This document shows, piece by piece, positions 9,142-52,391 of a stretch of DNA of 52,679 nt. The notes under the pieces were generated by a model. That model saw only the letters and a list, made by a program, of their open reading frames with translations. It was not told the origin of the DNA and ran no database searches. Position numbers and translations under genes: made by a program. The stretch is from Nitrospirota bacterium (lineage in GTDB: Bacteria; Nitrospirota; Nitrospiria; Nitrospirales; UBA8639): the NCBI GenBank assembly GCA_029865515.1, contig JAOUGQ010000001.1, positions 1 through 52,679 of the forward strand, read 5' to 3'. Every line of letters starts with the position of its first letter. The first letter of the stretch is position 1.

Positions 9142-9753
9142 CTATCTGGGAACAATCCGTATAGCTGCCCGGTCATTCACCGTTCGGCAAATATATTGAC
9201 AGACCCCGCAACCCACACAGAGCATGTCATCTATAGCAATACGAAACAATCCGAAATCCATCGAAATAGCCTCCGTTGGACATTTCGACACACAGGCATT
9301 ACAGCCATTCCCAGCCGTACACATTTTTGGCCAAACTTTCGCCACTCCCATATTTACCTGGAAACGCCCCGCTAAAGGCAAAAGAGCATCTGTTTCACAT
9401 GCCCCAATACAAGGAAGATCTTCACATAACTGACAGGGGGATTCTTCTGGAAATATCACAGGAGTATCGTTACTCAATAAGGTCTGAATAGCATCATGAG
9501 GACAAGCTTCCACGCAATCAGCGCACCCGGTACAACGCTCCAAAAACATCTCCTCCTCAACCGCACCAGGCGGACGGAGCCATCCCGTTCTTTCAGGAAT
9601 TGGCTGTTCCTGTTTTGTCTGCGAGGGAGCATCACGATGCTTCACAAATTCCTGGACAGTCGCCCCAATGGAAATTACGGAATGCCGAAGAAACGTCCTA
9701 CGACCTAATGAAGGATTGGGAGAAGACTGATCAGAGAGATTGGAATCGGACAT
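9142..9753 (-). CDS. NapG/MauM/NapF-type 4x[4Fe-4S] ferredoxin
   Basis: LGRRTFLR, LRPPGA, and cluster motifs CTGCADCVEACP, CQLCEDLPCIGAC, CTAGNGCNACVSKCP and CVGCGVCQYIC. Confidence 0.88.
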   Translation of the reverse strand: MSDSNLSDQSSPNPSLGRRTFLRHSVISIGATVQEFVKHRDAPSQTKQEQPIPERTGWLRPPGAVEEEMFLERCTGCADCVEACPHDAIQTLLSNDTPVIFPEESPCQLCEDLPCIGACETDALLPLAGRFQVNMGVAKVWPKMCTAGNGCNACVSKCPTEAISMDFGLFRIAIDDMLCVGCGVCQYICRTVNDRAAIRIVPR

Positions 9754-9812
9754 CAAAATGCTTTCAATTGGCTATAAAAAACAAATTTCAATAAAAAGAG
9801 CACACGTTTTTT

Positions 9813-10811: not shown

Positions 10812-10916
10812 GAGCAAAACCTCCGTTTACCGCAATATCACCACAAGACTGCGTTCATTTCTCGGGAAATGATCACTGCAATAATTCATTCGCGTTTAAT
10901 TTGGGAAGTAGGTATC

Positions 10917-12172: not shown

Positions 12173-12221
12173 TCCATTTGCACCTTACTAGTTCTTACTA
12201 GCTATCTCAGGGCAGCCCTTA

Positions 12222-26763: not shown

Positions 26764-26776
26764 ATCCGCGTCCTCC

Positions 26777-27745: not shown

Positions 27746-27792
27746 TCTTCTTTACTCCTTATAAAGGGTTAACCCTTAATTTTTGATTTTCC

Positions 27793-29106
27793 TTATTCTT
27801 TTGGAGGTAAAGGCTGGCCTTCTTTTAATTGCGCCAGGTAGTCCACGATTTTATTCAGGGCCCCTCCGGTCAATCTTACGCCAAAATCTTTTGGCATTTG
27901 ATTATCCGGGAAGTCCTTTACCACATATGCACTTGGATTTAAAATCGATTCCGTGATGTATTCCTTTGGCGATTTAGCTTTACCCTTATAATTTGGATCT
28001 TTTATGCGCTCCGGAGCATTCGATCCCTCCATGAGGAGTGGCCCAACTTTTCCAGTAGCCCCTTCAATCCCAGGGATAGTATGACAGGCGGGACATCCGG
28101 CCTTCATAAAGAGCTTATCATGTGGCTCGCTCCCGTCCGCCAAAATATTTCCCCCTGCACCGCCCTTCTCTTCTTCTCCACCTTCAGCCGGACGATCTGC
28201 TTCCGGAATAAACTTTTCATAGGAAGCCACTATTTCATCATATGTTGGGGCTTCCTTACCTTCCCTTGTATACATCCAGGTATCCACAGCAGCCAATTCA
28301 CCCAATGTCAATGATATTGGTGGTTTATGAATTTTAGGCATGGGGCTTACCGTATCGTTCGAACCCTTAACGCCAAACCCTGGCACCACATAACAACTTG
28401 GGCATGAATGTGATTCAGCGATATATTCTTGGCCGTTTGTGGCAGTCCCAGAACCTGCAAATGCTTCCTTTTGCTCAGAGGGACGGGCTGCTGCATCATT
28501 CATATGATAATTCGGCTCCTTCAATCGCTCTGGCGACCTGTCAGGAATGCCATAGAGATTCGGCGCCCGTTCACTTAAAAACCCTTGCTGGAATCCATGG
28601 CATAACGGGCATTGCCCCTTCCCAATGGCTCCCTGAGTTTTACTTTGCCCAATTCCTCCGAAAATAATTTTTTCTCCCTCATCACCTAACTGCTGGGCTG
28701 ACATACTTTGAAAATCCAACTTCACGACTGGAGGGGGAAATCCTCCCTCAACCTGCGGCAACCAATTTCCATATCCGGAAAGTGCGGCTGCCACAAAAAA
28801 CATGAACCCCCCAATCTTCATGAGGGCGCTAATGTTCGGGAAATAGAGCCCCATAATGAAAGACATTACGGTGATCATCACCAGAGAAACCGGCAGCAAT
28901 CGGCTTTCCCCATGAAAATTATGGGCGTAATTTGAAATAGCCATAAACGCTAAGAACGCACAAAGAATTCCGATTAATGTCTGAAAACTCGCACGTTTCT
29001 TTTTTACCGGATCAGAAATAGAGGCTTGAAAATACAATAATAGCCCAACCAGCATTAGCAATACCGGCCATCCCATTCCTATTGCCCGTCCCATTAACTC
29101 AACCAC
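27793..29106 (-). CDS. Membrane-bound diheme cytochrome c
   Basis: 4 N-terminal TMs, CPLCH and CPACH in two homologous domains, an extra HSCPSC; GTG start with GGAGG SD. Confidence 0.85.
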   Translation of the reverse strand: MVELMGRAIGMGWPVLLMLVGLLLYFQASISDPVKKKRASFQTLIGILCAFLAFMAISNYAHNFHGESRLLPVSLVMITVMSFIMGLYFPNISALMKIGGFMFFVAAALSGYGNWLPQVEGGFPPPVVKLDFQSMSAQQLGDEGEKIIFGGIGQSKTQGAIGKGQCPLCHGFQQGFLSERAPNLYGIPDRSPERLKEPNYHMNDAAARPSEQKEAFAGSGTATNGQEYIAESHSCPSCYVVPGFGVKGSNDTVSPMPKIHKPPISLTLGELAAVDTWMYTREGKEAPTYDEIVASYEKFIPEADRPAEGGEEEKGGAGGNILADGSEPHDKLFMKAGCPACHTIPGIEGATGKVGPLLMEGSNAPERIKDPNYKGKAKSPKEYITESILNPSAYVVKDFPDNQMPKDFGVRLTGGALNKIVDYLAQLKEGQPLPPKE

Positions 29107-29125
29107 AGTTCAATCCTCCACATGA

Positions 29126-29146
29126 GGGGCTGCCCACCGCAGCCCC
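29126..29146 (-). other. Intercistronic GC-rich hairpin without a U-tract
   Basis: GGGGCTGC-N5-GCAGCCCC between the cydA-like stop and the SD of the cytochrome c gene; likely an mRNA-stability element. Confidence 0.55.
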
Positions 29147-29173
29147 ATGATTGTTTGTAATTGTCTTCCTAGT

Positions 29174-31141
29174 TTAATGACCAGTTGCAGGCTGAGGAGA
29201 CGGAACTGGCTGCCCTGCTGTTGATGGAACCGGCACTTTCTTGGCGCCAAGGGTTCCCAACCAAAACACAAACATAATGCTTATCCAGAAAAACAGTACG
29301 TTAAAAGAAATGACGTTTGCCGCGAATCCAATTGTGTGGGTATACGCCCAGGGTGAATTATCCCGCATGACCTCGTTTACATGCCAGAACAACCTCACTG
29401 AAGACCTGATATAACCCATTAAACCCATCATCCACGTGAATGCTGTTGCCAACATAATTAATGCATATTGTGAACGAGGGGCAATTTTACCCCATTGAAT
29501 TGGTCCTAGCGGTCTCGCCCCTTTTAACATTGCTAAATTTAGCGGAGTCATCAAAAGAAGGCAGGACAAGGTGCCTGCCACCTGCGGAACCGATAATCCG
29601 ATACGGACATTCGCTGGGATGAAATACCCGTAGCAGGCCAACCAGATATTATTTAATTGGCCTATGACAAAGAAACATCCCATAAAAATATTCCCGAATT
29701 TTGCCCAACTAACGGTTGGCACCCGATTCCCGCGCTGGTACCAAATAAAGCTTAAAATAGTTGTCATAATAATGGCGTTAATGCCGCCATTCTTGGCCGA
29801 CATCACACCATAATTCCCCAAAACCGGGTGCTGCTGACCACCCATGGCTTTCAATTCAGCTGGGGTCATCACAATGGTATGCGGGGTAATAAAAACCAAC
29901 AAACCGCAAACCAAAATGAACACCAAATATTTTATGTATTTTTGGAATCTCTCCCCACCCGTCATTCGCCCAAGGGCTTGCCACAGGTAGTAATTTGTGG
30001 TCAGGAATAGAATCCCAATCATTGTGGCCTGAATAATAAATAACCACGCCAACAGACCACCCATCAATGTAATCCCCATCTGCTGTCTGTACGCGTATAC
30101 CTCACGCATGAGCCAATATCCCGCAAATGGAAGGGGAATCAGAAATGCCACACCCAGACTCATGGCGATGTAGCCCATCCAGTCATAGTGGGCCCGCTCT
30201 TCGTCCGTTTTTGAGGAAAGGAATCGGTATGCGGCATAAGCAGCCACCACACCACCACCGAAAGCCATATTTCCCAAAATTCTGTGGACATTCAATGGAT
30301 TCCAAAGCGCCGTATGCAACACATGCCAGATATTTCCGAGATATCGTCCTTGCTCATCTACACCGGCTGGCGACATCATAAAGCCGATCCATGAATTAGC
30401 GAGAAACATCAGGACAGTCCCAATCACATTGAGGATTACGGACATACTGAGATGGACCCACTTCATGACCCCTTCCCTCATTTTGTCCCATCCATAATAA
30501 TAGATGTAGAGCGTTCCACTCTCCGCCACGAACATAAGAGCATAAATATGCATGACGGGACGGAAAATACCGGAGAGATAACCGAAGAATGCGGGGTAGA
30601 GTGTCAGAAAGGTGAAAATGAGAATTCCACCCAAAATGGCCGTAAGTGAATACGCGGTCAAACTAATCTTGATAAAGTCGTAAGCCAATTGATCATATTT
30701 TTTGGCCATCGCTTTATCCTTGCTGACCATCCCGGCGAACTCAATACACATGCAGAAGATTGGCACGGCCAACACGAAACTCCCATAGTACAAATGCTGC
30801 TGATTAGCCACCCAAAGGAGGACACGACTTTCGAAGTTGTACCGAGGATAAAAAGTTTCGTTGTCGGCCGTTATGGGTGCTGGCATTCCAATGGCAGGCC
30901 CTTCAGTCTTGTAATAGACATCACGACCCATTTCAACTTTTTTCTCCTCACCCTCTGCTCCCTCCTTTTGTGCGGCAACCACGTCAGCAGGAGGTCCACC
31001 GGCTGGAGCCCCTCCCCCACTCGCCACAGCCGTCACAGACAGGAATATGGGCAGCAAAAGCAGCCCACCCATCACCATCAAGGCCATTGCGGCAAACAAC
31101 TTTTTCTTCCCCCGGGTCATTTGAATGAACAGGCGACCCAT
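29174..31141 (-). CDS. Cytochrome bd-like oxidase subunit I, copy 1 (Nitrospirota OR-N type; no Q-loop motif recognised, no cydB)
   Basis: CydA-like segments QQHLYYG (His19 equivalent), AESGTLYIYYYGW (Glu107 equivalent), LANSW..FMMSP, NVHRILG (His186 equivalent), GYIRSSVRLFW (GRQPW equivalent); many TMs; AGGAGG SD. Confidence 0.8.
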   Translation of the reverse strand: MGRLFIQMTRGKKKLFAAMALMVMGGLLLLPIFLSVTAVASGGGAPAGGPPADVVAAQKEGAEGEEKKVEMGRDVYYKTEGPAIGMPAPITADNETFYPRYNFESRVLLWVANQQHLYYGSFVLAVPIFCMCIEFAGMVSKDKAMAKKYDQLAYDFIKISLTAYSLTAILGGILIFTFLTLYPAFFGYLSGIFRPVMHIYALMFVAESGTLYIYYYGWDKMREGVMKWVHLSMSVILNVIGTVLMFLANSWIGFMMSPAGVDEQGRYLGNIWHVLHTALWNPLNVHRILGNMAFGGGVVAAYAAYRFLSSKTDEERAHYDWMGYIAMSLGVAFLIPLPFAGYWLMREVYAYRQQMGITLMGGLLAWLFIIQATMIGILFLTTNYYLWQALGRMTGGERFQKYIKYLVFILVCGLLVFITPHTIVMTPAELKAMGGQQHPVLGNYGVMSAKNGGINAIIMTTILSFIWYQRGNRVPTVSWAKFGNIFMGCFFVIGQLNNIWLACYGYFIPANVRIGLSVPQVAGTLSCLLLMTPLNLAMLKGARPLGPIQWGKIAPRSQYALIMLATAFTWMMGLMGYIRSSVRLFWHVNEVMRDNSPWAYTHTIGFAANVISFNVLFFWISIMFVFWLGTLGAKKVPVPSTAGQPVPSPQPATGH

Positions 31142-40101: not shown

Positions 40102-40197
40102 AATACGACTAAAGAATCATTTTCGATGTCGATCTTAACGGGGTCACTTTGCGAGGTCAAATGCTTACAGGAAAGGAAAAGTCCCAAAGCCAACTAC

Positions 40198-40237
40198 AAA
40201 AAACAAGGGCAACCAGCCCATGGCCAGTTGCCCTTGT
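40198..40237 (-). terminator. Intrinsic terminator
   Basis: ACAAGGGCAAC-N13-GTTGCCCTTGT followed by a U-run on the minus strand. Confidence 0.7.
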
Positions 40238-40266
40238 CGGAAGAGCGATTCTCGAGGGAACCAGAC

Positions 40267-41061
40267 TTATTTGATCTCGAAATTCGCTTCGACGGTTCCC
40301 CCGTCCTTTACATCCACATCGGCTTCCACCTGGCCGGCAATAGGATGCCAGGCCATCACTTTGTGCTTACCAGCAGGCACATCCTTGATTTCGAAGGTAC
40401 CATCCGCGCCCGCCACGCCGTAATGGGCATTGGTCACCGGCAAATACCAGGCTTGCATAAACTCATGCTGATCACATTGCAACCGCAACACAGAACCCTT
40501 TTTGGACATTTTCAGCTTGACACTTTTATCCAACGAATCGCCTTTCTTGGCTAATCCGATATTGAACTCCGTGCTGGACTTGGCACCCAACTGATCGAAG
40601 CTATGCGGGTTGTGCAACACGCCTTCCGCAGATTTAGGGTCGCTTGGATCGGCATCGTTATTGACCACTTTAAACTGCCCCAGACTCACGGCAATTCCCG
40701 TATACGGCTTAAATTCGCACAATTCGGCCACAACCGATTGGGGAGCTTCTTTTTTGGCTTTGTCGGTAAACCCCTTGTCTTCAACATCACGAACCGATAC
40801 GACCGCATTTTTCAAACCCTTGCTTCCATCCACTTCCACTTCCTTGAGCAACCGAGTATTTCCATCAGCACTTTTGCTCTCATTTTTTTTGCAAAATTCC
40901 GTATTGGGAAATTTTTTAAACGCGAATTCCTTCGGTGGCGGAACTTTTCCGGTAAACGTGACTTTCCCTTTAATTGTTCCGCCTGCCTGGGCCACTAATG
41001 GCGCGGCAATCAGAATACCACCAATCAATAAAGACATAGTAAAAGACTGACGATTCCTCAT
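40267..41061 (-). CDS. Exported carboxypeptidase-regulatory-like/cupredoxin-like protein 1
   Basis: Signal peptide (AQA), GTIKGKV, LHNPH, LQCDQHEFM, DGTFEIKDVPAG.....WHP; AGGAGG SD. Confidence 0.8.
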   Translation of the reverse strand: MRNRQSFTMSLLIGGILIAAPLVAQAGGTIKGKVTFTGKVPPPKEFAFKKFPNTEFCKKNESKSADGNTRLLKEVEVDGSKGLKNAVVSVRDVEDKGFTDKAKKEAPQSVVAELCEFKPYTGIAVSLGQFKVVNNDADPSDPKSAEGVLHNPHSFDQLGAKSSTEFNIGLAKKGDSLDKSVKLKMSKKGSVLRLQCDQHEFMQAWYLPVTNAHYGVAGADGTFEIKDVPAGKHKVMAWHPIAGQVEADVDVKDGGTVEANFEIK

Positions 41062-41206
41062 GATGCTTCCTCCTAGTTGTTAAGAAAAAATTTGAGTTGA
41101 CGAGGGAAACTACCAACTTGAAAGGTTAAAAACCACCCACCTGCTTGACCACGGCCAGGTGAAAAAAGTTGATCGTGGAATGATTGTCTGACTGCACCCA
41201 CTTCCG

Positions 41207-41236
41207 TATATATCAGGAATAAAAAAAACGTGTCAA
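41207..41236 (-). promoter_or_regulatory. Candidate sigma-70 promoter for 40267..41061
   Basis: TTGACA, 18 nt ending in TGA, TATATA (extended -10). Confidence 0.45.
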
Positions 41237-41366
41237 GGAAACCAACTTGCAATAGGTCCTTTGGATCATCCTTTAGGCCTTTTAGTTCTACAAAAATCAA
41301 AGATTCGTGAAACCACCCTGTTTACAAAAACCATCACACAAGCACGACCGGTTATCTGGACAATAC

Positions 41367-43352
41367 TCATTTTTGATGCACGGGTTCCTTAAGTACCGCC
41401 AACATTTCAGCAATGCTCTCTTTCATCGCCTCTGCTTGAAAGACTGGAGCCGAACACATCCGATCGGTGCAGACAAAGGCCACAGGACGCCCATCGTAGG
41501 GAAAAACAATTTCACCCCATTTGGGTTGCCCTTCACGGGGGTCAAACCACCTCACAATTTTCCCTGGGCAATAGAGCTCACGGCCTTTTAACAACAAGGC
41601 TTGGGCCATTGGATCAAAGGATCCCCCCACCACGGCAATATGAACGGGAATCCGAAACCATTGATCGATGGCTAAACCTGCCAACGCGACAGGGAGGGGT
41701 TCCGGAGAAGTCACTATGAACTGTAACGTTCTTTCGGCAATGGATTGGTATTCCGGCTTCCCCGTGAGATGAAAAAGAGTCAGGTACCAGAGCGCAGCTT
41801 GAAAGTTTTCCGTCACCGGTTTCGTGGGCAACTTCAGAAGACCCAATGAGTCGGACGTGCCTGGATGATCGAAGAAACCCCCGTTCACGGAATCTTGCAA
41901 TAATTGCTGATTGACTTCAGCAAGAACTTCAGCGTTTTGCAAAAACCGAGGCTGCCCTGTGGCACTAAACGCCTCAAGCAATGCTTGCCCAAAGAGGATG
42001 TGGTCAGACAATAATCCGTACAAGCCGAGTTCCCCTTCCACCTCGACATGGGCGAGCCCCCTTTTCACGTCAAAGCGTTTTTCATACAACTGGGTGAGGG
42101 CCTGAAGGGCTATGTCCCGTATCTCCGTTTTTCCCAACACCGGAAATGCATGCAGGTAGGCCCATGCCATCAATGCATTACTTCCTGTGAAAATCCGCTG
42201 ATCTACTCCAGGAATACCGATAGCCAATCGCTTGCGTTCACTCAAAGCATAGTACTCGGCACCCGATACGAAAGGTCCCCCTTCAGGACCCCGGACATCG
42301 GCGTCCTGGCTTTCATAAAACAGCCTCGCTTGCGGATCCGTTAAAAACCGCGAGACATACTCAATGAGAGCTTCGGCAACACGTTTGAACTGAAGATCTC
42401 CAGTGAGTTGAAAGGCTTCAACATAATTGCGGAGATTCCGGGCTTGAATGGTCAACATTTTTTCAAAATGCGGCTGAGTCCAGTCCGCTTGTTCAGCATA
42501 GCGGTAAAACCCGCCCCAAACAGGATCGAGTAAGGGCAGTTGTTTTTCCAAGGTTTGCAAGCCCATCTTGAGCAATTCAGGGTCGTTTTCAAAGAAGCCA
42601 TGTGCAAAGGCCATCTGGATCGCTTCGGGTTCAAAAAATTTTGGCGCATTCCGAAACCCTCCATTAACAGCATCAAATTGCGCTCTCATGATCTCAACAC
42701 TTTGCTTAACCATAGAGACCTGAAGCGCATTACCCTTGGAAGGGCTGGCTTCGACCTTCTCCTTCACCCGGTTCCATAACCTGGAGGCCTGATTGAGTAA
42801 AGCAGCCTTATCGGTTGAATAGAGAGACTGCATCTCAAGAAGCAGTTCTTCCATTTCCTCAGGTTCCAGTGCGTTCGCTTGAAAGAGAATCTCCCCGGTC
42901 GGCAATAACAGATTGGTCGTCGGCCATCCTCCAGCTCGATAACGAGCCTGTAAATCTGGACGCTGATCGGTATCGACTCGAACAGGAATAAAGTTGTCAT
43001 TCAGCAACTGTATAATACGAGGATTGGCGTACGTCGCCTGATCCATCACATGACAGGCATGACACCATACCGCAGTAAGATCCAAAAGAATTAATTTATC
43101 TTCAGCTTGGGCTTGTCGGAAGGATTCCGATCCCCATTCATACCATTGGATAGACGGCCGGACATCGGTATCCACCACAGTGATTGTTTCAGCGTAAACG
43201 GAATTTCCGAGGAGAAACATGCCAAGCCCACCTATACACAACGATCTACGTACAAACTGAAGAAGGGGAGGACCATATCTCGCAGAAACCCATGACAAGG
43301 AATGCCCTGTCAGAATTTTGTGCCAGGATGGCGATAGGTGGGAATATGTCAT
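41367..43352 (-). CDS. DUF255/YyaL-family thioredoxin-domain plus glycosidase-like (alpha/alpha)6 protein, probably exported (start uncertain)
   Basis: W.EWG.E.F..A....K.I.L, WCHACHVMD, F.PVRVD.DQRPD, GGWP, GGF..APKF, PHFEKML, AFVC....CS.P. Confidence 0.85.
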   Translation of the reverse strand: MTYSHLSPSWHKILTGHSLSWVSARYGPPLLQFVRRSLCIGGLGMFLLGNSVYAETITVVDTDVRPSIQWYEWGSESFRQAQAEDKLILLDLTAVWCHACHVMDQATYANPRIIQLLNDNFIPVRVDTDQRPDLQARYRAGGWPTTNLLLPTGEILFQANALEPEEMEELLLEMQSLYSTDKAALLNQASRLWNRVKEKVEASPSKGNALQVSMVKQSVEIMRAQFDAVNGGFRNAPKFFEPEAIQMAFAHGFFENDPELLKMGLQTLEKQLPLLDPVWGGFYRYAEQADWTQPHFEKMLTIQARNLRNYVEAFQLTGDLQFKRVAEALIEYVSRFLTDPQARLFYESQDADVRGPEGGPFVSGAEYYALSERKRLAIGIPGVDQRIFTGSNALMAWAYLHAFPVLGKTEIRDIALQALTQLYEKRFDVKRGLAHVEVEGELGLYGLLSDHILFGQALLEAFSATGQPRFLQNAEVLAEVNQQLLQDSVNGGFFDHPGTSDSLGLLKLPTKPVTENFQAALWYLTLFHLTGKPEYQSIAERTLQFIVTSPEPLPVALAGLAIDQWFRIPVHIAVVGGSFDPMAQALLLKGRELYCPGKIVRWFDPREGQPKWGEIVFPYDGRPVAFVCTDRMCSAPVFQAEAMKESIAEMLAVLKEPVHQK

Positions 43353-43457
43353 GAAAGCCCTACTTTAGGAGGAAACACACACACCCATGGATTTGCTTGT
43401 TGCCTCCCGTCTTGAATGCCTAAGGGCAAACCAACCAAGCACAGCGTATTGATCAGG

Positions 43458-44834
43458 CTAAATACCGATCTCCTTATCCAGAATGGTCACAATGGCTGCC
43501 GCGGCGGTAACCCGCACCGCTTCATCCGTATCCCGAAGTGTGCGCTTCAAAACCGGCAACATCCTACGATCACCCATGCGACCCAATGCGCGGGCAGCCA
43601 CGATCCGAGGCCGAGGCAGCGGATCATTGAGACCCAACATGAGAGTCGCAATAACCTCCCGACCTGTTCCATTCCCAAGCGCCTTTACGGCAAGAGACCG
43701 AATGGCCGGATTTTGGTCATTGAGGAGCTGCTGAACCGTATCTTTGACCACGGCATAGGACGCACCCACGCGTAACAATGACGCCACTGCCGCCGCTTGG
43801 ACACCGGGATTCGAATCGGCCAACGCCCTGGTCAACGGGGTGACTACTTGATGTTGCTCAAAATACCCCAGGCTCACAGCCGCCTCACTCCGCACCGCAG
43901 GATTAGGATTAAACAAAACTGCTTTCAAGGTGGGCAAGGATTCAGGAGCTTTCAGTTTCCCTAACGACGCAATAGCCGCAGCACGGATAGACGGTTGATC
44001 ATCGGAAATCGTCTTTTCCAATATCGGTAGGGCACGACGATCATTCAGTTCGCCAAATGCACGGATAGCCGCTCCCCGTTCATAGCCCTCCTGACTTTTC
44101 GCGCCTTGCTCCAAACGAGCCCAATATTCTTTGTGACCCAACTCATACAACCCTCTCGCCGCGGCAATTTGGACAAGATGCTGCTCATCCTTCAACGACG
44201 GTTCAATCATGGGCACCAGGGTCCCGTCACCGGATTGTCCAAGCCCAATCAAGACTGTCGCTCGAACCAGACCGGCCCCGTCTTTTAATGCTTCACGAAA
44301 CCGCTTGGAACGCTGTCCGGCCTTTCGTTTTCCCAACGCTTCGGCCGCCAAAGCCCGGATCATGCCGGATCCATCAGTCAGGCCTTCCTCCAAATATTCC
44401 ACAACATTATCAGAATCGATTTCCTTCAACGCCGTGTAGGCGGCCCCCCGCATCTGCTCCCTCATATCGGAACGGAGCGGCAAAATACTGGCAATGGCAG
44501 TCTGTCGCAACAGCCTTTCATCTTCCTGTTTTGCCCCTTTTATCACTGTTTCATAGGCATCCATGGCTTCACCGGTTTTGCCCAATCCGGCTAATGCGAG
44601 AATGTGCAATCGAGAAGCCTGAGAAGGCGGAGACCCGTGATTGAGAAGAGGCTTCACAAGATCGACCACCTGTTGAAATTTCCCCTGGTCGTAGGCTCTT
44701 TGCGCTTGCACGATCACTGAATCACTCACTTCCTCCGCCCGGGCAAAACCCGCGAAAAGAAAAATGATTCCCAGGGCAACCGTCAAATAACTCCTCATCT
44801 TTTTTTGTCTGACCCCATCTCCTATCCGCATCAT
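43458..44834 (-). CDS. Exported HEAT/PBS-lyase repeat protein
   Basis: Signal peptide (ARA-E) and many L.D....VR..AA.ALG repeats; start moved to the ATG after AGGAG. Confidence 0.85.
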   Translation of the reverse strand: MMRIGDGVRQKKMRSYLTVALGIIFLFAGFARAEEVSDSVIVQAQRAYDQGKFQQVVDLVKPLLNHGSPPSQASRLHILALAGLGKTGEAMDAYETVIKGAKQEDERLLRQTAIASILPLRSDMREQMRGAAYTALKEIDSDNVVEYLEEGLTDGSGMIRALAAEALGKRKAGQRSKRFREALKDGAGLVRATVLIGLGQSGDGTLVPMIEPSLKDEQHLVQIAAARGLYELGHKEYWARLEQGAKSQEGYERGAAIRAFGELNDRRALPILEKTISDDQPSIRAAAIASLGKLKAPESLPTLKAVLFNPNPAVRSEAAVSLGYFEQHQVVTPLTRALADSNPGVQAAAVASLLRVGASYAVVKDTVQQLLNDQNPAIRSLAVKALGNGTGREVIATLMLGLNDPLPRPRIVAARALGRMGDRRMLPVLKRTLRDTDEAVRVTAAAAIVTILDKEIGI

Positions 44835-44838
44835 ACTC

Positions 44839-45513
44839 CTACCCTCTCGGAACCTGGGCTTCCTGTGCCTCAATAGTTCTGTAGCCCAAAGGGGCTTCAA
44901 AAAAATAATCTGGTTGCGGGGACAGCACCACATGATGATATTCCACGAACCAATCTCGATCCTGGCTTAAAAGTTTCAACAGTATGTTTCTGTCAGGATC
45001 TACCCACTCAAAAAATCGCTCAGTTTGACCAAAGCGATTCTGCACCACCACTTCATAGAGCAAAGCAGGCTGATCACCTACGACCGAATCCCCAATAACC
45101 GTTCGACTCGTCTCCCCTTCCAACTGAACAGAAAATGGTAACAAATAATCCGAAGTTAAGGGAACGCTCACCACCATTCGCCGTTGAGACAGCACATACC
45201 AGATTTTTTGTTCATCCAACCGGACAATTGTGACACTCGCATAGCCCAACTCCGTTCGTATTCCCCCTGCAGGTTCAATACGATAACGATCCTTTTTCAC
45301 AAACAGCAGGGCTTTGGCAATACGTCCACCCGTTTTCCACACTAGTCTTGCTGAAAATTCACGAGGACTGTCGGCAGAAAGATGCGGGGAATCAGCAAAA
45401 ACCAAAACCGACGGGCACCAGATCACCATTCCCAAAATGGCCCATAAAGTCAGTCCCGCAAATCTCCTGTCACATGATTTGGAAGAAAGGGCAAAAAAGC
45501 CTATCCGCTTCAT
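44839..45513 (-). CDS. Exported hypothetical protein (DUF4412/LolA-like beta fold)
   Basis: Signal peptide (VFA-D); FSA...K.RIE...TIVRLD.....W; F..P.GY C-terminus. Confidence 0.6.
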   Translation of the reverse strand: MKRIGFFALSSKSCDRRFAGLTLWAILGMVIWCPSVLVFADSPHLSADSPREFSARLVWKTGGRIAKALLFVKKDRYRIEPAGGIRTELGYASVTIVRLDEQKIWYVLSQRRMVVSVPLTSDYLLPFSVQLEGETSRTVIGDSVVGDQPALLYEVVVQNRFGQTERFFEWVDPDRNILLKLLSQDRDWFVEYHHVVLSPQPDYFFEAPLGYRTIEAQEAQVPRG

Positions 45514-46436
45514 GGCCTTTGGTGTTCAACCAAAGGGTCAATCAGGACAGGCCGTCCAAGGGCAGCGGAAGTAAATCGAGGAGGGGCTTGAAGTTTATGC
45601 GCAGTCCAACGCCCCACGGGCGATGCCAACGAAAAATCCATCCGAACGGTCTGATCGGATTCCACGGTAAATGTTTTGACCTGCTCCTGTTTGACGCTTG
45701 GATGCCAGGCACGAATGCGATAGCTTCCTGGCGGAAGTGACGAAATAACATATTCTCCTTTTTCATTGGTAAAGGCGAAATAAGGATTATCCACGGCAAT
45801 AGCCCAACTCTCCATGTAGGCATGAAACCCACACTGCATCACAAAGGTTTTGCGTCCCTTGCTCAATTGAAATTGATGAACCATGGATTTGCCAGGCAGA
45901 TGCTCGTGGGTTGCGTGAATATTCTCCCGTTGATGACGGGGATTAAAGGGCAGAGGAGAATTAAATAACACCCGCGTCCCTTGGGTCAAAGAAGTTTCAT
46001 AGGCCTGAATATCATGCATGACCGGATCCATATTCACCACTTCAATCCCATGCTCATCACGAACCACCGTCGTAAAGGGAAGAAACTGGCAGTCCCGGGC
46101 TTCTACTCGCGGAATGGACAGTGAAAATGGTTTTCCGGCTTTGACCCCTTCAACCACCATCACGACCCCTTGAATCTGACCTTCATTATTTACCACAAAA
46201 TCTTTAAGCAGGCGCCAGCCTCGGCCATTAGAAATGCGTCCGCAATATTCAGGATCAGGGAACGTAATCAGATTATAGGCTTTCGGGGAAGGCGGAGTTC
46301 CTTCGAGGGTCACTGTCCCCCTAATGGTTGCCCCTCCCTTTACTTCAGCCACTTCGTAGGCTAAAGCAGTCGAATTGACGGCCCAGATAAGACTCACCAA
46401 CAGGATTTTCACCATTCGACTTTTTTCCATTAGCAC
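45510..46436 (-). CDS. Exported carboxypeptidase-regulatory-like/cupredoxin-like protein 2
   Basis: Signal peptide (ALA-Y), YCGRIS, DCQF.P, MDPVMHDIQ, MQCGFHAYM, WHP. Confidence 0.8.
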   Translation of the reverse strand: MLMEKSRMVKILLVSLIWAVNSTALAYEVAEVKGGATIRGTVTLEGTPPSPKAYNLITFPDPEYCGRISNGRGWRLLKDFVVNNEGQIQGVVMVVEGVKAGKPFSLSIPRVEARDCQFLPFTTVVRDEHGIEVVNMDPVMHDIQAYETSLTQGTRVLFNSPLPFNPRHQRENIHATHEHLPGKSMVHQFQLSKGRKTFVMQCGFHAYMESWAIAVDNPYFAFTNEKGEYVISSLPPGSYRIRAWHPSVKQEQVKTFTVESDQTVRMDFSLASPVGRWTAHKLQAPPRFTSAALGRPVLIDPLVEHQRP

Positions 46437-46445
46437 CTCACGACT

Positions 46446-47375
46446 TTAGGGAATTTGCCTTCGTAACGACGGAACGATCTCAACGCCTTCTCCAAGCAAC
46501 TCCAGACCAAAATGCGGATTCTCCTGCATTTCATGCACACTTCGCCGTCCTTGGGGAGATTCATACTGAAAATCTAACTTCAGGGTTTTCCCCTCTTCCA
46601 CCACCACTTTTTTCTCCAGATAGGTTTTCATCCCAGGATGCCAGACAGCAACCTCATATTCTCCTGCTGGAATATCCTTAATTCCGTAGGCCCCATCTTC
46701 TTTGGAAATGGCATAATAAGGATTCTCCACCACCACCCCCCAGGAAAACATATAGGGATGAAAGCCGCACTGCATGACAAACACATTTCGTCCTTTTCGC
46801 AAATGGATTTTTTCCACCATCGGTTCGCCCGGCAGATGCGTGTGGGCATTTTTCCCGAACAGCCCAACTACCTTATGAAAGGGATTCATCGGCAAGGGAC
46901 GATTAAACAAGACTCTGGCCCCTCGTTCTCTGGCCGTTTCATAGCCCTGGATATCATGTTCTATCGGATCCATATTGATGACGGTGATTTCATCCTGATC
47001 ACGTAACACATTCACAAAAGGCAAAAAATCACAATCAATCGCTTCAACTTCCACCTTTGGCAAAGAAAACGATTTTCCTTTTTCTATCCCTTTAATCATA
47101 ACCACGGCATCTTTTAATTCCCCCTGTGGACCAACGATAAAATCTTCAACAATCCGCCACCCTGTTCCGGTTGATATCCTTCCGCAATATACTGCATCTG
47201 GAATGGTCACCAGATTAAACGCCATGGGTCTGGGGTTTTCTCCCGTAATGGTCACTTTTCCTTGAATGGATCCCCCATTTGTCACGTTGATTTCATCGTA
47301 GGACCACGCCGTATGTCCTAAAAGCGCCATAAGCCCCATCCCTACGATCCCTTGCCAGACTGTTCGGCCCCTCAT
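46446..47375 (-). CDS. Exported carboxypeptidase-regulatory-like/cupredoxin-like protein 3 (tandem paralog of 2)
   Basis: Signal peptide (AWS-Y), YCGRIS, DCDF.P, MDPIEHDIQ, MQCGFHPYM, WHP; GAGGAGG SD. Confidence 0.8.
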   Translation of the reverse strand: MRGRTVWQGIVGMGLMALLGHTAWSYDEINVTNGGSIQGKVTITGENPRPMAFNLVTIPDAVYCGRISTGTGWRIVEDFIVGPQGELKDAVVMIKGIEKGKSFSLPKVEVEAIDCDFLPFVNVLRDQDEITVINMDPIEHDIQGYETARERGARVLFNRPLPMNPFHKVVGLFGKNAHTHLPGEPMVEKIHLRKGRNVFVMQCGFHPYMFSWGVVVENPYYAISKEDGAYGIKDIPAGEYEVAVWHPGMKTYLEKKVVVEEGKTLKLDFQYESPQGRRSVHEMQENPHFGLELLGEGVEIVPSLRRQIP

Positions 47376-47437: not shown

Positions 47438-47476
47438 AAAAAAAAGCGGGGAAGCCGATGAGAGGCTTCCCCGCTT
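47438..47476 (-). terminator. Intrinsic terminator after the multicopper oxidase gene
   Basis: AAGCGGGGAAGCC-N7-GGCUUCCCCGCUU with a U8 tract. Confidence 0.85.
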
Positions 47477-47504: not shown

Positions 47505-50500
47505 TTATTTCGCGACGGTAGGAATAATCCGCGGTTCGCCGTTGAATTCACCAAGAGCCGCCTGTTTGGAAGAAGACATGCCTCCTTCCAACGGCAGAAT
47601 CCGTTGATCCGTGTTCGGCAACACCCGGAGATAGCCCCATTGCCCGGACTGGGAATAGGGTAACCGCCCGTTGCTCCACACATAATCCCCGGCCAGGGCC
47701 CATTTCCCTCCTGCGGCAGGAAGGAACACATCAAGACCTTCCGAACCCGAGAACTCCACCGTGCTGATCATATCCGCGCCCGGAAGGAACGGTTCAATCG
47801 GCCATTCATGTTTTTCCACCGTGAACATCCCGTTTTGCTCGCTGCTGGCCCCAAAGACGTGAATCCGGACTTTGTCGCCCGCATGCGCTTCAATCACCGG
47901 CGTCACAGGATCCTGCGGGTTGTCCACCTGGCACGGTTGGAACATCCGCCCCAACGAACACCCGGCTTCTTCCCGTTGCAGGTAGGGTTCGGCGCGATAA
48001 TTGACGCCGGTTAACCCCGCCACATTCTGCACATATGGCATGAAACTCGTTCCGATGATGTTGTCCTCGTCCTGGAAGTACAAGGCCACATCACGATAGT
48101 TGGCCCGATTTTCATTTCCTTGAATAGCCCGATCGACGATCACATCGGCATTCCAACTATTCTTCAGCGAAATATCATCGCCAGTTTTTGGATCGCGGTA
48201 GCTCGAGCCTTTGGGCCCGATTATGATCCCCCCGAACAGGCCGTTGCGCGGATTGGTTGACACATTCCCCCAATCCCACACAAGCGTTTGGGTTTCCCCA
48301 TTGAAGGGATCCGCATAATAGGTGTATGTCCGGGACTCGCCAGAGGCCACAGTTTGGTCACCTGGGTTACTTCCCAAATTCACGCCCTGTGAATCCTTCG
48401 GATCGAAAGCCAGCCCGAAAGCTGAGAACGATGCCCGACCCTCCTTGAGTTTGTTCGTCAATTTCACCTTTATACAATCACCCACGTTGGCCCGTAAGGT
48501 CAACGGCATCGGTTGCACATCGCCCGCCACCTTCTGCACCTCATCCTCGAGGAGGTAGATCTTGGCGGCAGGATTGCGCAATTCAATCTTCCGTTCAAAG
48601 TCGACTTCAATGGCTTCCGGGGCGTTGGCATTAAAACTCATCCCCGGATGGTCCATGGCCACCACGTTAAAGCTCTTCACTGAAGCCTCTTTCGGACACA
48701 CCGGCAAGCGTTCCGGCATCCCTTCTTTGCCATATGCCTTATTGGGCAATGGCTGGAGGTCACCCACAGGCTTATCTAATACCCGGATGATGCCCCACGC
48801 GCCTTCCGAAAACTTGGAGCTACGTCCATTGAAGAACATATAATCACCGGCTTGATGCCGTGGTCCACCCGCTTCAGGAATCACCAAGTCATACCGTTCG
48901 GCAATCCCGATATGCAGGGAATGCTTACGATTGGCTTCCTGCGCATACCGCTCAGACCAGAAGGTATGGCCGGATAACGTAAACACATTACTTTCATTCA
49001 TGGTCACGTCCAACAGCCGGAACACAATGGCATCACCCAGGTAGGCCCGAATCATGGCCGTACTGGGATCGCCATGCACCGCACTGCTGAACAGCTTGGA
49101 GGGATCAGGGTTATTGGCCAACCGCTGCGCGAAAGGCTCCGCCCTGAAATTTAACGCTCCCCCCGTTGTATGGGTACCTCCGTTCAAGAACGGCATGGGT
49201 GTCATTTTTATTTTGTCGTTCGGGGGCATGATAAATGACACCGTCCGACCGGCTTCCAAGGCCACATCCACCGGTTGTCCCGGAGGATTACCGGCCGTCA
49301 CGATATTCACGGTGTGTGGCACGGTATCCATGATATGCACCATCAGTTCACGGAAGCTGCCGGCCACATCATGGCCAACACGCTCCACGGCATGAATATC
49401 GGCCACCGGCCCAGTCCGAATCCGTTTGCCGGTCTTCGGATCATGCCAGGTTGAATTGAAAGGTTCCGCAATCATGGTCCCGACTGCGCCATGGGGCCAC
49501 GTGGTGCCCCCGAAGGCATGATCATGCCAGAACACACTGCCCACATCCGCATCCACCCAGAACCGCTGTCGCACGTATTCCACGGTCACAATGTCATTGA
49601 CCGGATGCGCATTCCGCAACGGCTGGGCAAACGTCAACGTCTTGCCACTGATTTTGACAATCCGTTGCACTTCTTGCCCTTTGACATTATCCGCGCCAAT
49701 CAAGATTGGAATGCCCACATGATATTGCGTGGCATTCGAGACCTCCAAGGTTTTGTCGCCTTTTTTGGCGGCCTTGGTCACCTTGGCATTCATGGGAACC
49801 GGCAACCCTTTTTTGGTAGGTTTGTCAAATTGCGTGAACGGGCGCATGGACTGCTCATACGAAAAGCCAGAAATCACGCCATCGGAGGCTTGATTGTCAA
49901 ATTGAAAGAAATGGAAATGCGTGTTGATCTTGGACGATTGGAAGTTGGTGATATCGTCATCGATCCACTCGCTGGTGAGCATCCAATCGATGCAATCATA
50001 CACATTGGCCCGCACGACCAACGGGAATTTCTTATTATTGTCTGCCCGGACGGCCTCTTCTTCTTCATGCACGACATACAGCAGCCCATTGGGGTCCACA
50101 ATCGCCGGCTCTTTGCCCTCCGCCGCCGATAATTCAATCGGCAACTTGATGAAATGCACCTTGTAATCTTGGGATCCGGCCCGCGTCGGGCACAAGCTCC
50201 ACGGCCCGTTCTCGCCTGGTTTGGCCGGTTCGACCGACCGCGTCCCATCCGGATTCAACCGGATCATTTCCAGCCACGGCGCCGGATTATGATCGTTGGA
50301 GAACGGATTCCGTTTGCCGAAATGCGGCGTCAACCAAGGCCACGCCACTTTGCCGGTGGTGGGCTCAAACCAAATAGCCCGCCGTTCCCCCGCTTTATAC
50401 CCCTGCCATTCCGGGCGGTATTTGGGGTTATCGCCCAGCGTGGGTTCCTTCTCGCTCATCGCCTTCGCCCCGTTCCAGACCCAATCAACCACGGTAGCAT

Positions 50501-52391
50501 CATAGGCTTTCATTTGACCGAGTTCATCATCTGTGTGACCTGGTTTGCCTTGATTACTCAACTGCATTTCTACCCAGTCTTTAATATTCACGACAGCCGG
50601 CTCAGCATTCCAATTGCTCTTGCCATCGCCAACGATCTTAAACTGCTTGCCAAACCAATTGACCGTCTTGCCCACGAGCTGATCGGAGGTGACCGGCTTA
50701 TGAATACGTCCCAACCGATCCGGCAATTCCCGTAACGGGGCCATCACGTCATTTTGGACACCTGGTACTTGAATGGTGTTATACACCCGCCAATACCCCC
50801 ACATCCCCGCCACATAGTGATGCGCCACATGGCAATGGAAGAGAAAGTCGCCGGCCAACCATTGGCACAGGCCCGAGCCGCATTCCGTTTCTAAATCCAA
50901 CGCTTCCGACGGCCCGATGACTTCCACGTCCACCCGGTCTGACTTCGTGCGAATCACCGGATATTTCACCGGCCCGGTTTGCCCGGTGTTCCACACGGGC
51001 ATTTGCGTGGCTCGTGGGCTGCGTTGCCAACGAATTGAACCACCATGAGGATGGTGGGAATGGAAGACTTCCGATCCACCATGCACCACCCGGAATTTGG
51101 CTGGATCGCCCAAATAACTACGAGGAATGGTCGGAGCCGCATCACCAAAGGTATACGAGCTATAGGCCATCGATTCATCCTCAAACCCGAAATATTCATG
51201 CTGCACATGCATGTTATTGATGCCGAACGGCTCACTACGATAGTTAAGCGCCCGCGCGCCAGGGCGATAGGCATCAGTCAGAGGATCGCGTTGTGGTAAA
51301 AAATCCCCATGCTTATTGACAGGACGGAAGGCCTCGTCACCGACTTCATGATAGATCAGGACAAATTCCCGAAAGTCCGGTCCATCGCCATTATCAATCA
51401 TCACTTGCCATCCGCTGCTGGCCTCCGTGGCAGGTCCCGTTCCCAACGGCTCATAATAATTGGAGCCTCTCGGTTCTACGACAAACACCCCGAACAGACC
51501 CATGACTGTCAGTTCTCGGTCATTGCTAAAGGTATGAAATTGGCGGCCACCCTCTTGTGTATCCGGATGGATATACCATTCCATTTCAATCGTTTTACCT
51601 TCAACTGCCACCGAATCAGGATTGGTGGTGGTCGCCGGTTTACCGGTTTGGCTCATGACCATATCCGACCCATTGATATGCAAGCTGACTTCTTCTCCGA
51701 ATTCCAACTGGTTGTGTAGGGCGACCTTGACGCAATCACCTTGATTGCCTCGAATCACCAACGGTTGAATCCATTGATCTTGGATACCGTTTTTCACGCC
51801 ACCCGGATCATGGTGCCCTTCCTTCTCACGAGCCGCCGCATTTTTGGCTTCTTCCTCACGGATCTTGTCAATATTTTCAGTCAAGGCATACATGTACCCT
51901 GGGTAATAATCGAGCCATTGATTCAAGGTGATTTCAACGTTGATGGCGGACACATCGTAATTTCGGACGGGCGCTGTCTTGGGACACAGTCCGCCCTTCA
52001 TGGACACCGGTTCGACACCGGGTTGACTGGCCAGTAAGCCATTTGCAGGTCCCGCACCATATTGGTGAATCATCGACATGGAATTGAACGCTCCCGTCTC
52101 GCTGCCCTTCTGATCCATGTCCTGCTGCATTTGCTGCATCATGCGTTGATGTTGCTGTTCAACCAGGGCCGCCCGTTCCGCACGGCCCTCCATGGCATCT
52201 TCCACAATCGTCTGGCCTTTGAGCTGTTCGGCCCAGGCAGGAGAATCCTGGTGGGTCATACCTGCCTTGTGAATCATTGTTTCCTGGGTGTCTCCGGCCA
52301 AGAGATTACCTGCCGAAAACAGCGAAATCCCTCCCAGAAACAATCCTAGGGAAAGGGATGTGACGGCATTCCGAGTTTTCACATAAAACAT
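47505..52391 (-). CDS. Large exported multicopper oxidase (multi-cupredoxin, MnxG/ceruloplasmin-like)
   Basis: Signal peptide; repeated PL..R.N.GDC domain starts; Cu motifs HSHHPH, FHCHVAHHYVAGM, THFH, WHDH; AGGAGG SD. Confidence 0.88.
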   Translation of the reverse strand: MFYVKTRNAVTSLSLGLFLGGISLFSAGNLLAGDTQETMIHKAGMTHQDSPAWAEQLKGQTIVEDAMEGRAERAALVEQQHQRMMQQMQQDMDQKGSETGAFNSMSMIHQYGAGPANGLLASQPGVEPVSMKGGLCPKTAPVRNYDVSAINVEITLNQWLDYYPGYMYALTENIDKIREEEAKNAAAREKEGHHDPGGVKNGIQDQWIQPLVIRGNQGDCVKVALHNQLEFGEEVSLHINGSDMVMSQTGKPATTTNPDSVAVEGKTIEMEWYIHPDTQEGGRQFHTFSNDRELTVMGLFGVFVVEPRGSNYYEPLGTGPATEASSGWQVMIDNGDGPDFREFVLIYHEVGDEAFRPVNKHGDFLPQRDPLTDAYRPGARALNYRSEPFGINNMHVQHEYFGFEDESMAYSSYTFGDAAPTIPRSYLGDPAKFRVVHGGSEVFHSHHPHGGSIRWQRSPRATQMPVWNTGQTGPVKYPVIRTKSDRVDVEVIGPSEALDLETECGSGLCQWLAGDFLFHCHVAHHYVAGMWGYWRVYNTIQVPGVQNDVMAPLRELPDRLGRIHKPVTSDQLVGKTVNWFGKQFKIVGDGKSNWNAEPAVVNIKDWVEMQLSNQGKPGHTDDELGQMKAYDATVVDWVWNGAKAMSEKEPTLGDNPKYRPEWQGYKAGERRAIWFEPTTGKVAWPWLTPHFGKRNPFSNDHNPAPWLEMIRLNPDGTRSVEPAKPGENGPWSLCPTRAGSQDYKVHFIKLPIELSAAEGKEPAIVDPNGLLYVVHEEEEAVRADNNKKFPLVVRANVYDCIDWMLTSEWIDDDITNFQSSKINTHFHFFQFDNQASDGVISGFSYEQSMRPFTQFDKPTKKGLPVPMNAKVTKAAKKGDKTLEVSNATQYHVGIPILIGADNVKGQEVQRIVKISGKTLTFAQPLRNAHPVNDIVTVEYVRQRFWVDADVGSVFWHDHAFGGTTWPHGAVGTMIAEPFNSTWHDPKTGKRIRTGPVADIHAVERVGHDVAGSFRELMVHIMDTVPHTVNIVTAGNPPGQPVDVALEAGRTVSFIMPPNDKIKMTPMPFLNGGTHTTGGALNFRAEPFAQRLANNPDPSKLFSSAVHGDPSTAMIRAYLGDAIVFRLLDVTMNESNVFTLSGHTFWSERYAQEANRKHSLHIGIAERYDLVIPEAGGPRHQAGDYMFFNGRSSKFSEGAWGIIRVLDKPVGDLQPLPNKAYGKEGMPERLPVCPKEASVKSFNVVAMDHPGMSFNANAPEAIEVDFERKIELRNPAAKIYLLEDEVQKVAGDVQPMPLTLRANVGDCIKVKLTNKLKEGRASFSAFGLAFDPKDSQGVNLGSNPGDQTVASGESRTYTYYADPFNGETQTLVWDWGNVSTNPRNGLFGGIIIGPKGSSYRDPKTGDDISLKNSWNADVIVDRAIQGNENRANYRDVALYFQDEDNIIGTSFMPYVQNVAGLTGVNYRAEPYLQREEAGCSLGRMFQPCQVDNPQDPVTPVIEAHAGDKVRIHVFGASSEQNGMFTVEKHEWPIEPFLPGADMISTVEFSGSEGLDVFLPAAGGKWALAGDYVWSNGRLPYSQSGQWGYLRVLPNTDQRILPLEGGMSSSKQAALGEFNGEPRIIPTVAK

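What the first reader, a model, noticed from the sequence alone, without database searches (positions are those of the whole stretch)
40267..47375. Three exported 'carboxypeptidase-regulatory-like' proteins look like blue-copper proteins with amicyanin-type ligand spacing
Seen: each has an upstream His (LHNPH, MHDIQ, EHDIQ), a C-x2-H-x2-M loop (CDQHEFM, CGFHAYM, CGFHPYM) and two further conserved Cys, all set inside a split beta-sandwich. Known: amicyanin's type-1 Cu loop is C-x2-H-x2-M. The Lys-rich copy at 40267 has its own candidate promoter and terminator, which suggests separate and possibly high expression. Inference: an overlooked family of high-potential periplasmic Cu electron carriers linking the multicopper oxidase, NXR and the terminal oxidase.
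Basis: partly seen in the sequence, partly recalled or inferred. Interest (0 to 1): 0.75.

Follow-up and report, generated by a model that had tools for sequence, protein, structure and literature searches.

The report
Abundant two-domain blue-copper proteins of nitrifiers
Three mislabelled exported proteins of a nitrite-oxidising bacterium carry a predicted blue-copper site and likely ferry electrons in the periplasm; their relatives were already proposed for this job in 2013, but no test of it was found, and the orthologue of one is among the most highly expressed genes in a cultured relative.

Summary
All three genes encode a cupredoxin domain inserted into a split transthyretin-like sandwich, which is what earns the 'carboxypeptidase-regulatory' label. 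The His, Cys, His and Met align with amicyanin's ligands and are kept in 89-96 of 98 diverse homologues.

The family is not overlooked. By gene order, its anammox members are kustd1713 and kustd1699, already called blue copper proteins. Lücker et al. 2013 proposed cupredoxin-like carriers in this NXR/bd-like/multicopper-oxidase gene set. This scan also noted it before in another genome.

Added here: the 40267 gene has a conserved promoter-like site and terminator. Its positional orthologue is transcript rank 20 in N. moscoviensis (about 21x its paralogues) and as abundant as NxrA in the N. marina proteome.

Not supported: 'high potential' (untested) and a link to the terminal oxidase. The nearby bd-like genes are the type shared with anaerobic anammox bacteria. 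The family also occurs in genomes where no NxrA was found, beside other redox enzymes.

Best reading: a general periplasmic type-1 copper shuttle serving the bd-like_3/cytochrome c module. Copper binding is likely (about 0.9); partners are inferred. No biochemical study was found.

The parts
40267..41061 (-). Lys-rich two-domain cupredoxin (P0001, 264 aa); predicted type-1 Cu ligands His150, Cys196, His199, Met202; likely disulfide Cys57-Cys115; usually single-copy in Nitrospirales; positional orthologue highly expressed
40432..40743 (-). Inserted cupredoxin domain of P0001 (residues 107-210)
41207..41236 (-). Conserved sigma70-like promoter element TTGACA-18-TATATA, 175 bp upstream of the start codon (function inferred)
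   Evidence: sequence; similar element in 24 of 30 orthologous upstream regions; missed by the strict scan
40193..40238 (-). Intrinsic terminator-like hairpin (17 bp stem) and T-run after P0001
   Evidence: strong hairpins downstream in 30 of 30 orthologous loci (no shuffle control)
45510..46436 (-). Second paralogue (P0002; likely start 46430, 306 aa) with the same ligand set, an extra loop and a C-terminal tail of about 40 aa; cupredoxin domain 45789-46115
46446..47375 (-). Third paralogue (P0003, 309 aa), 46% identical to P0002, directly downstream of the giant multicopper oxidase; cupredoxin domain 46725-47057
47444..47476 (-). Terminator-like hairpin between the multicopper oxidase and P0003
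   Evidence: fits the roughly 10-fold drop in transcripts after the oxidase in N. moscoviensis
47505..52391 (-). Context: giant MnxG-like multicopper oxidase (1628 aa) with its own type-1 and trinuclear-cluster motifs
24889..31141 (-). Context: bd-like_3 oxidase subunit, diheme and monoheme cytochromes c and alternative NxrC, homologous to kustd1712-kustd1709, the module that follows the cupredoxin gene in anammox bacteria
6770..10817 (-). Context: NxrC, TorD-like chaperone and zinc-finger-like gene, homologous to genes of the anammox nxr cluster

Best explanation
These are exported two-domain proteins whose inserted cupredoxin domain is predicted to bind one type-1 copper (His, Cys, His, Met) and which likely act as soluble one-electron shuttles in the periplasm. 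Shown: ligand motifs, their conservation, predicted fold, gene neighbourhoods, and high expression of the positional orthologue of the 40267 gene. Inferred: Sec export with copper loading outside the cytoplasm; a Cys57-Cys115 disulfide tying the N-terminal loop to the copper domain; the split transthyretin-like sandwich serving as a stalk or docking module. The abundant, separately transcribed, mildly basic 40267 protein most likely carries electrons between periplasmic donors (NXR via NxrC in this organism) and the acidic cytochromes of the bd-like_3/alt-NxrC membrane module. The two low-abundance paralogues likely exchange electrons with the multicopper oxidase in a catalytic, non-stoichiometric way. 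The family is a general plug-in carrier, not an NXR-specific part.
For: Fold: AlphaFold2 pLDDT 98 and 92. The insert matches Cu-bound 4hcf (Z 10.0, rmsd 1.9, 84 aligned), plastocyanin 7zqe (Z 9.7, rmsd 2.5, 87) and amicyanin 1aac (Z 8.8, rmsd 2.7, 86); the flanks match the carboxypeptidase D transthyretin-like domain (Z 11.8, rmsd 1.8, 77) (same pattern for P0003). A domain profile aligns His and Cys/His/Met with the same motifs of amicyanin (E 1.6e-4 for 1aac) and with the Nitrosopumilus cupredoxin 5fc9 (E 1.3e-8). Ligands kept in 89-96 of 98, with Leu (3) and Glu (3) among the axial swaps. Both extra Cys are lost together in P0211, P0253 and the kustd1699-type proteins. Context: 61 of 78 anammox-type loci hold a bd-like gene and 51 of 78 an alt-NxrC; a second member follows nxrA directly. 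Outside Nitrospirales, members neighbour bd-like subunits, c-type cytochromes, diheme peroxidases and small multicopper oxidases, and in two genomes without a detected NxrA one follows an AioAB-family enzyme. A family gene lies within 1.5 kb of the giant oxidase in 24 of 30 loci. Expression: NITMOv2_3655 has RPKM 4348, rank 20, against about 205 for the two paralogues; N. marina 2597407144 has NSAF 0.29-0.39 against 0.33-0.35 for one NxrA copy; kustd1713 is as abundant as NxrB and mostly soluble. Charge: 99 of 119 close homologues of P0001 are net positive (median +8), while the diheme cytochrome (-9), alt-NxrC (-25) and NxrC (-7) are negative.
Against: The three window proteins do not reach Pfam's or NCBIfam's copper-protein models; only 2 of 101 members touch PF00127 at E<=0.01. 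P0001 itself is only +2 and the Kuenenia kustd1713-type protein is -1, so the charge argument is weak. The quick tree puts the window proteins apart from kustd1713/1699, so anammox context transfers by homology, not by one-to-one orthology. In the window P0001 is 3.5 kb and four genes from bd-like_4 and 9 kb from bd-like_3. Orthologues in the expression tables were matched by gene order and length, not by sequence. Of 7 genomes outside the order with an NxrA-like gene, 4 showed no family match. Neighbouring copper-maturation-type genes (ABC permease, SCO1) fit a chaperone role equally well.
Confidence: 0.62

Rival explanations
1. Periplasmic copper chaperones or buffers with a cupredoxin fold (CupA/CopI-like) that load the giant multicopper oxidase and other copper enzymes.
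For: Adjacent to a copper-hungry oxidase in 24 of 30 loci; some relatives sit by ABC-2 permeases and SCO1; thioredoxin-domain and DUF420 genes nearby; CupA 4f2e is among the fold matches (Z 8.2-9.0); high abundance suits a buffer.
Against: A complete four-ligand type-1 set is typical of electron transfer (established knowledge). P0001 has no His/Met-rich stretch. In anammox bacteria the gene leads an operon of heme proteins, with no giant-oxidase hit in 78 loci, and its transcript follows nitrite oxidation (7.7-fold down when fed NO).
Confidence: 0.15
2. P0002 and P0003 are fixed subunits of the multicopper oxidase, like MnxE/MnxF on MnxG; only P0001 is a free carrier.
For: Gene order oxidase-then-paralogue recurs at both oxidase copies of this genome and in 24 of 30 loci; both have a C-terminal tail of lower model confidence; N. 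marina NSAF 0.10 against 0.19 for the oxidase.
Against: Terminator-like hairpin between oxidase and P0003; transcripts about 10-fold lower than the oxidase in N. moscoviensis; when the second N. marina oxidase rises 16-fold its neighbour rises 1.5-fold, not significant; 6 of 30 oxidase loci have no family gene within 1.5 kb.
Confidence: 0.12
3. A distorted (green, purple or red) copper site with catalytic or NO-handling activity, as for the Nitrosopumilus purple cupredoxin or nitrosocyanin.
For: The best sequence match among solved cupredoxins is 5fc9; nitrosocyanin 1iby is a fold match (Z 9.3); the host is a nitrifier; a few members carry an axial Glu.
Against: 5fc9 has Arg where this family keeps Met; the axial Met is present in all three window proteins and in 89 of 98 homologues.
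Confidence: 0.07
4. Metal-free structural or carbohydrate-binding surface proteins, as the database labels imply.
For: Pfam and Atlas names are carboxypeptidase-regulatory or rhamnogalacturonan-lyase domain II.
Against: Those hits cover only the last 50-60 residues; the central insert has a cupredoxin fold with near-invariant ligands.
Confidence: 0.04

Closest known systems
[quoted passage not shown] 2013 (PMC3578206)
   Same: Full-length homology (tblastn 26-31% identity, E 1e-16 to 4e-25 to the kustd1713-position gene in two Kuenenia loci), same split-sandwich-plus-cupredoxin layout and C-x2-H-x2-M loop, same wider gene set (bd-like, cytochromes c, alt-NxrC, NxrC, chaperone), high abundance.
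   Different: Separate clades in the quick tree; the kustd1699 type lacks the Cys pair; Nitrospirales carry 2-9 copies, and two of the window's sit beside a giant multicopper oxidase not found in the anammox loci. Figure 6 of the paper was not visible, so which Nitrospira genes it meant is not confirmed.
Amicyanin (Paracoccus; PDB 1aac)
   Same: Upstream H-N-x-H motif and C-x2-H-x2-M loop align residue for residue; fold Z 8.8-9.2.
   Different: Amicyanin is one 105-aa domain serving methylamine dehydrogenase; these are 240-285 aa two-domain proteins with a likely disulfide, 14-19% structural identity, and no methylamine dehydrogenase genes among the neighbours examined.
Nitrosopumilus purple cupredoxin (PDB 5fc9)
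   Same: Best sequence-profile match among solved cupredoxins (E 1.3e-8); nitrifier host.
   Different: It lacks the axial Met and is a single domain.
Rusticyanin with Cyc2, and azurin with arsenite oxidase (carrier roles recalled, not from a call)
   Same: Family members sit beside Cyc2-like monoheme proteins (label recalled from the motif; no Pfam or NCBIfam hit) and beside AioAB-family genes above NCBIfam cut-off.
   Different: Different ligand-loop lengths and single-domain architecture; an analogy of context only.
MauL-like cupredoxins (CDD cd04221; recalled)
   Same: Recalled as cupredoxin domains with a similar short ligand loop.
   Different: Not testable here: no CDD library, and searches found no paper describing it.

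Membership tests
Type-1 (blue) cupredoxins | Greek-key cupredoxin fold | tested here: met
   Z 8.8-10.0, rmsd 1.9-2.7, 84-89 aligned residues against 4hcf, plastocyanin and amicyanin for two models; Foldseek agrees
Type-1 (blue) cupredoxins | His plus Cys-His-Met ligands at the canonical positions | tested here: met
   Aligned with the amicyanin motifs; conserved in 89-96 of 98; invariant in 23 of 23 domains
Type-1 (blue) cupredoxins | Ligands converge with type-1 geometry | not testable with these tools
   Model coordinates are not returned; inferred from fold and alignment only
Type-1 (blue) cupredoxins | Cu binding with a band near 600 nm, type-1 EPR, reversible redox | not testable with these tools
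   Needs protein; no such study surfaced in searches
Pfam PF00127 Copper-bind / PF13473 Cupredoxin_1 | Score above the curated cut-off | tested here: not met
   No hit for the three window proteins; 2 of 101 members hit PF00127 weakly; one Kuenenia paralogue passes the cut-off, 25.9 against 21.2 bits
Amicyanin | C-x2-H-x2-M ligand loop | tested here: met
Amicyanin | Single ~105-aa domain matching TIGR02657 | tested here: not met
   Two-domain proteins; no hit for the window proteins; 3 of 101 members hit weakly, best E 3.7e-4
Kustd1713/Kustd1699 family of the nxr cluster | Full-length homology and shared architecture | tested here: met
   All 78 anammox-type loci are hit by all three window proteins; gene order in L063, L083 and L084 matches the kustd1713-1699 table
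Kustd1713/Kustd1699 family of the nxr cluster | Location in the NXR/bd-like/cytochrome c gene set | tested here: met
   The window holds homologues of kustd1712-1709, NxrC, chaperone and zinc-finger gene; nxrA is not assembled in this genome and a part of nxrB lies on another contig
Kustd1713/Kustd1699 family of the nxr cluster | One-to-one orthology with kustd1713 | tested here: inconclusive
   The quick tree separates them (SH-aLRT 96-98) but has no bootstrap, a midpoint root and no clade test
Carboxypeptidases | Catalytic peptidase domain | tested here: not met
   Only the ~80-residue transthyretin-like accessory domain matches
MauL-like (CDD cd04221, recalled) | Match to the CDD model | not testable with these tools
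   No CDD library is held

The most novel reading that the evidence does not exclude
In Nitrospirales the main soluble carrier of electrons from nitrite is not cytochrome c but this NxrA-abundant two-domain copper protein. It belongs to a large family of plug-in cupredoxins with no solved structure, reused with bd-like modules, AioAB-family enzymes, Cyc2-like cytochromes and giant multicopper oxidases. Nitrite oxidation in oceans and treatment plants would then carry an unrecognised copper demand.
Probability: 0.25. Interest if true: 0.62.

Novelty: new member of a known kind. Interest (0 to 1): 0.36.

Why it matters
How electrons leave periplasmic NXR in Nitrospira and anammox bacteria is still open, and recent reviews of Nitrospirales respiration name only cytochrome c (PMC12342949 main text has 0 occurrences of 'copper'). 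The idea of a copper carrier dates from 2013, but the Nitrospira genes are still labelled hypothetical or carboxypeptidase-regulatory in the expression tables read here. Tying the idea to a specific small, soluble, very abundant protein makes it testable with one expression experiment. It is a useful re-annotation and target choice, not a new kind of system.

Tried and rejected
Complex prediction of oxidase residues 130-560 with P0003: no verdict, score 0.00; not used as evidence. RNA runs for the region: none was listed. Single-sequence PDB search with P0001: nothing meaningful; profiles were needed. No solved structure covering both domains appeared. The strict sigma70 scan missed the promoter-like site. 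ESM Atlas gave only clusters with lyase-domain or hypothetical names and no structure search. The second His of H-N-x-H (His in 65 of 98, Gln in 22) was considered as a second-metal ligand and rejected, because it aligns with the equivalent His of amicyanin's motif. NXR-specificity was rejected as a general rule: four same-order genomes with no NxrA match keep family members and the bd-like_3/diheme pair, and three of them searched also have the oxidase. Literature: 10 searches; three papers name kustd1713 and the passages seen do not characterise it. Kartal 2013 was not held; de Almeida 2011 and Lücker 2010 were not read. Supplement searches in PMC11897245 and PMC12342949 found none of the locus tags, so I could not check whether these genes are among the 140 'nitrite-oxidiser' markers. 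The careful tree did not finish. Nitrospina genomes were not examined.
Full report
Observation. The three ORFs and all quoted motifs are present. Homologue names point to Nitrospirales. The genome has seven paralogues. Pfam covers only the last 50-60 residues. The ligand loop alone is barely above chance (12 of 2442 ORFs against 6.5 in shuffles), but the full pattern is far above it (8 against 0.03, pattern derived from these proteins). A profile search of 1.84 billion representatives returned 595 proteins at E<=1e-30 and 24,160 at E<=1e-3; the larger figure includes long repeat proteins matching only the sandwich. Of the 150 listed I kept the 95 new ones of 225-340 aa; with the three window proteins, His150, Cys196, His199 and Met202 are kept in 96, 95, 94 and 89 of 98, and Cys57 and Cys115 in 95 and 96.

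Structure. AlphaFold2 models are confident (pLDDT 98.1 for P0001, 91.6 for P0003). The middle ~110 residues superpose on cupredoxins (4hcf Z 10.0, plastocyanin 9.7, amicyanin 8.8) and the two ends on a transthyretin-like sandwich (carboxypeptidase D domain Z 11.8; a small subunit of the Kuenenia hydrazine dehydrogenase complex Z 9.8) (for P0003). A profile of 23 isolated domains aligns the His and the Cys/His/Met with amicyanin's motifs. Joint loss of both extra Cys in several members suggests a disulfide (inference).

Prior knowledge. [quoted passage not shown] To test whether that is this family, I fetched 78 anammox-type loci. All are hit by the three window proteins; 61 hold a bd-like gene, 55 the diheme cytochrome and 51 alt-NxrC (these genomes are kin, not independent). 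The order in a Kuenenia locus (member, cydA-like, diheme, monoheme, diheme, tetraheme, monoheme, UspA) matches kustd1713 to kustd1706 in PMC6423088 (passages and tables). A second member follows nxrA, at the kustd1699 position. PMC11897245 (passages) calls both 'blue copper proteins' and finds 65-69% in the soluble fraction. PMC11791136 (passages) mentions blue copper proteins in the cluster. PMC8387239 (passages) names the cluster only. JGI already names some members 'plastocyanin'. So the family and the hypothesis are in print. No biochemical study surfaced in the ten searches listed under Tried and rejected. A quick tree makes the P0001 and P0002/P0003 clades sisters, apart from the anammox clade, so they are homologues rather than proven orthologues.

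Expression. P0001 has a match in 52 of 61 same-order genomes, single in 50. All 30 loci examined keep HNPH and CDQHEFM; 24 have a TTGACA..TATA element upstream and all 30 a strong downstream hairpin. In PMC6606698 (passages; supplement rows) the gene at the same position, NITMOv2_3655 (265 aa), is rank 20 with RPKM 4348, against 350 and 205 for its neighbours, about 205 for the two paralogues and 1922 for the oxidase. In PMC8115632 (passages; supplement rows) the 264-aa protein at that position has NSAF 0.29-0.39, like one NxrA copy (0.33-0.35) and above NxrC (0.17-0.20), with no significant change at low oxygen; the paralogues reach 0.10-0.12 and 0.01-0.05. These matches rest on gene order and length. 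In Kuenenia, kustd1713 is as abundant as NxrB.

Partners. The window's bd-like genes match bd-like_3 and _4 by context and size. The proposed terminal oxidase is a different paralogue (PMC6606698; PMC12342949 passages and section 23; PMC10839748 passages and section 14; the bioRxiv OR-N paper, passages). Since anaerobic anammox bacteria pair the cupredoxin with the bd-like_3 module, an oxygen-reducing endpoint is not implied. In a phylum sample the family was found in 57 of 151 genomes, including all 34 of the order. An NxrA-like gene was found in 34 of 151; of 7 outside the order, 3 had the family. Four same-order genomes without an NxrA match (possibly the NXR-less family described in PMC12342949; not verified) keep the bd-like_3/diheme pair and family members. 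In the two I read, a P0001-like gene sits directly before the oxidase and another member follows AioAB-family genes. In 30 loci from 19 other Nitrospirota genomes (1.5 kb flanks, some overlapping) the neighbours include bd-like subunits (5 loci), alt-NxrC-like or related cytochromes (5), Cyc2-like monoheme proteins (7, label recalled), diheme peroxidases (2), small multicopper oxidases (2), ABC-2 transporter genes and SCO1. The recurring theme is periplasmic redox machinery. A family gene lies within 1.5 kb of the giant oxidase in 24 of 30 loci, and the oxidase has its own full copper motifs. The roughly 10-fold transcript gap, the intervening hairpin and the lack of co-induction (16-fold against 1.5-fold) argue against fixed subunits. 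PMC10579370 and PMC11812461 (passages) add nothing on these proteins.

Mechanism and odds. Type-1 copper binding: about 0.9. Electron-shuttle role as stated: 0.62. Chaperone 0.15, fixed oxidase subunit 0.12, catalytic distorted site 0.07, metal-free 0.04. The redox potential is unknown; the nitrite couple sits near +400 mV, and Met-ligated type-1 sites span a wide range (recalled).

Verdict. Real, correctly recognised as cupredoxins, but members of a family already labelled blue-copper in anammox work and already proposed as carriers. The value lies in naming the specific abundant Nitrospirales gene, defining the two-domain architecture and showing the family's wider reuse.

Noticed in passing
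window 47505-52391 and L001:878-5818: Two giant multicopper oxidase paralogues. In the N. marina proteome the window-type copy falls to 0.6x while the other rises 16x in what appear to be the low-oxygen samples; that paper's main text has no occurrence of 'multicopper'. In N. moscoviensis they rank 53 and 19. The substrate is unknown.
   Followed up: partly
L157:6479-14408 and L154:171-6468: Same-order genomes without an NxrA match carry Rieske plus molybdoenzyme genes above the AioB/AioA cut-offs (scanned for L157), followed by a family cupredoxin, MauG-like diheme proteins and a cytochrome c; could be arsenite oxidase or an iodate-reductase-like system (label recalled).
   Followed up: partly
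L107:2239-3504, L110:78-1565, L113:202-1521, L114, L115, L096, L085:2422-3840 and 10923-12332: 420-500 aa proteins with one N-terminal CxxCH and no Pfam hit, resembling Cyc2 porin-cytochromes (recalled), repeatedly next to family cupredoxins, also in a same-genus Nitrospirales genome.
   Followed up: partly
window 37872-38387 and L063:18583-19926: The small PCP_red-domain protein of the window matches the C-terminal end of the UspA-like protein in the Kuenenia nxr cluster (E 3e-7), another shared element of the two gene sets.
   Followed up: partly
L103, L118, L120-L123: Family genes beside ABC-2 transporter genes (NosFY-like, label recalled), a redoxin, SCO1 and a transglutaminase-like protein, suggesting a copper-loading route.
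   Followed up: partly
window 41367-45513: Between the paralogues lie a thioredoxin/DUF255 protein, an exported HEAT-repeat protein and a 224-aa protein with no Pfam or NCBIfam hit; the DUF255 gene seems absent at this position in N. moscoviensis.
   Followed up: no
G000:C51:570-1034: A 155-aa ORF outside the seven paralogues matches the full cupredoxin-like pattern; possibly a single-domain blue copper protein.
   Followed up: no
L083:9661-10452, L084:8269-9024, L093:5047-5706: Anammox members of the kustd1699 type lack the Cys pair and the N-terminal loop; one passes Pfam PF00127, bridging the family to plastocyanin/azurin.
   Followed up: yes
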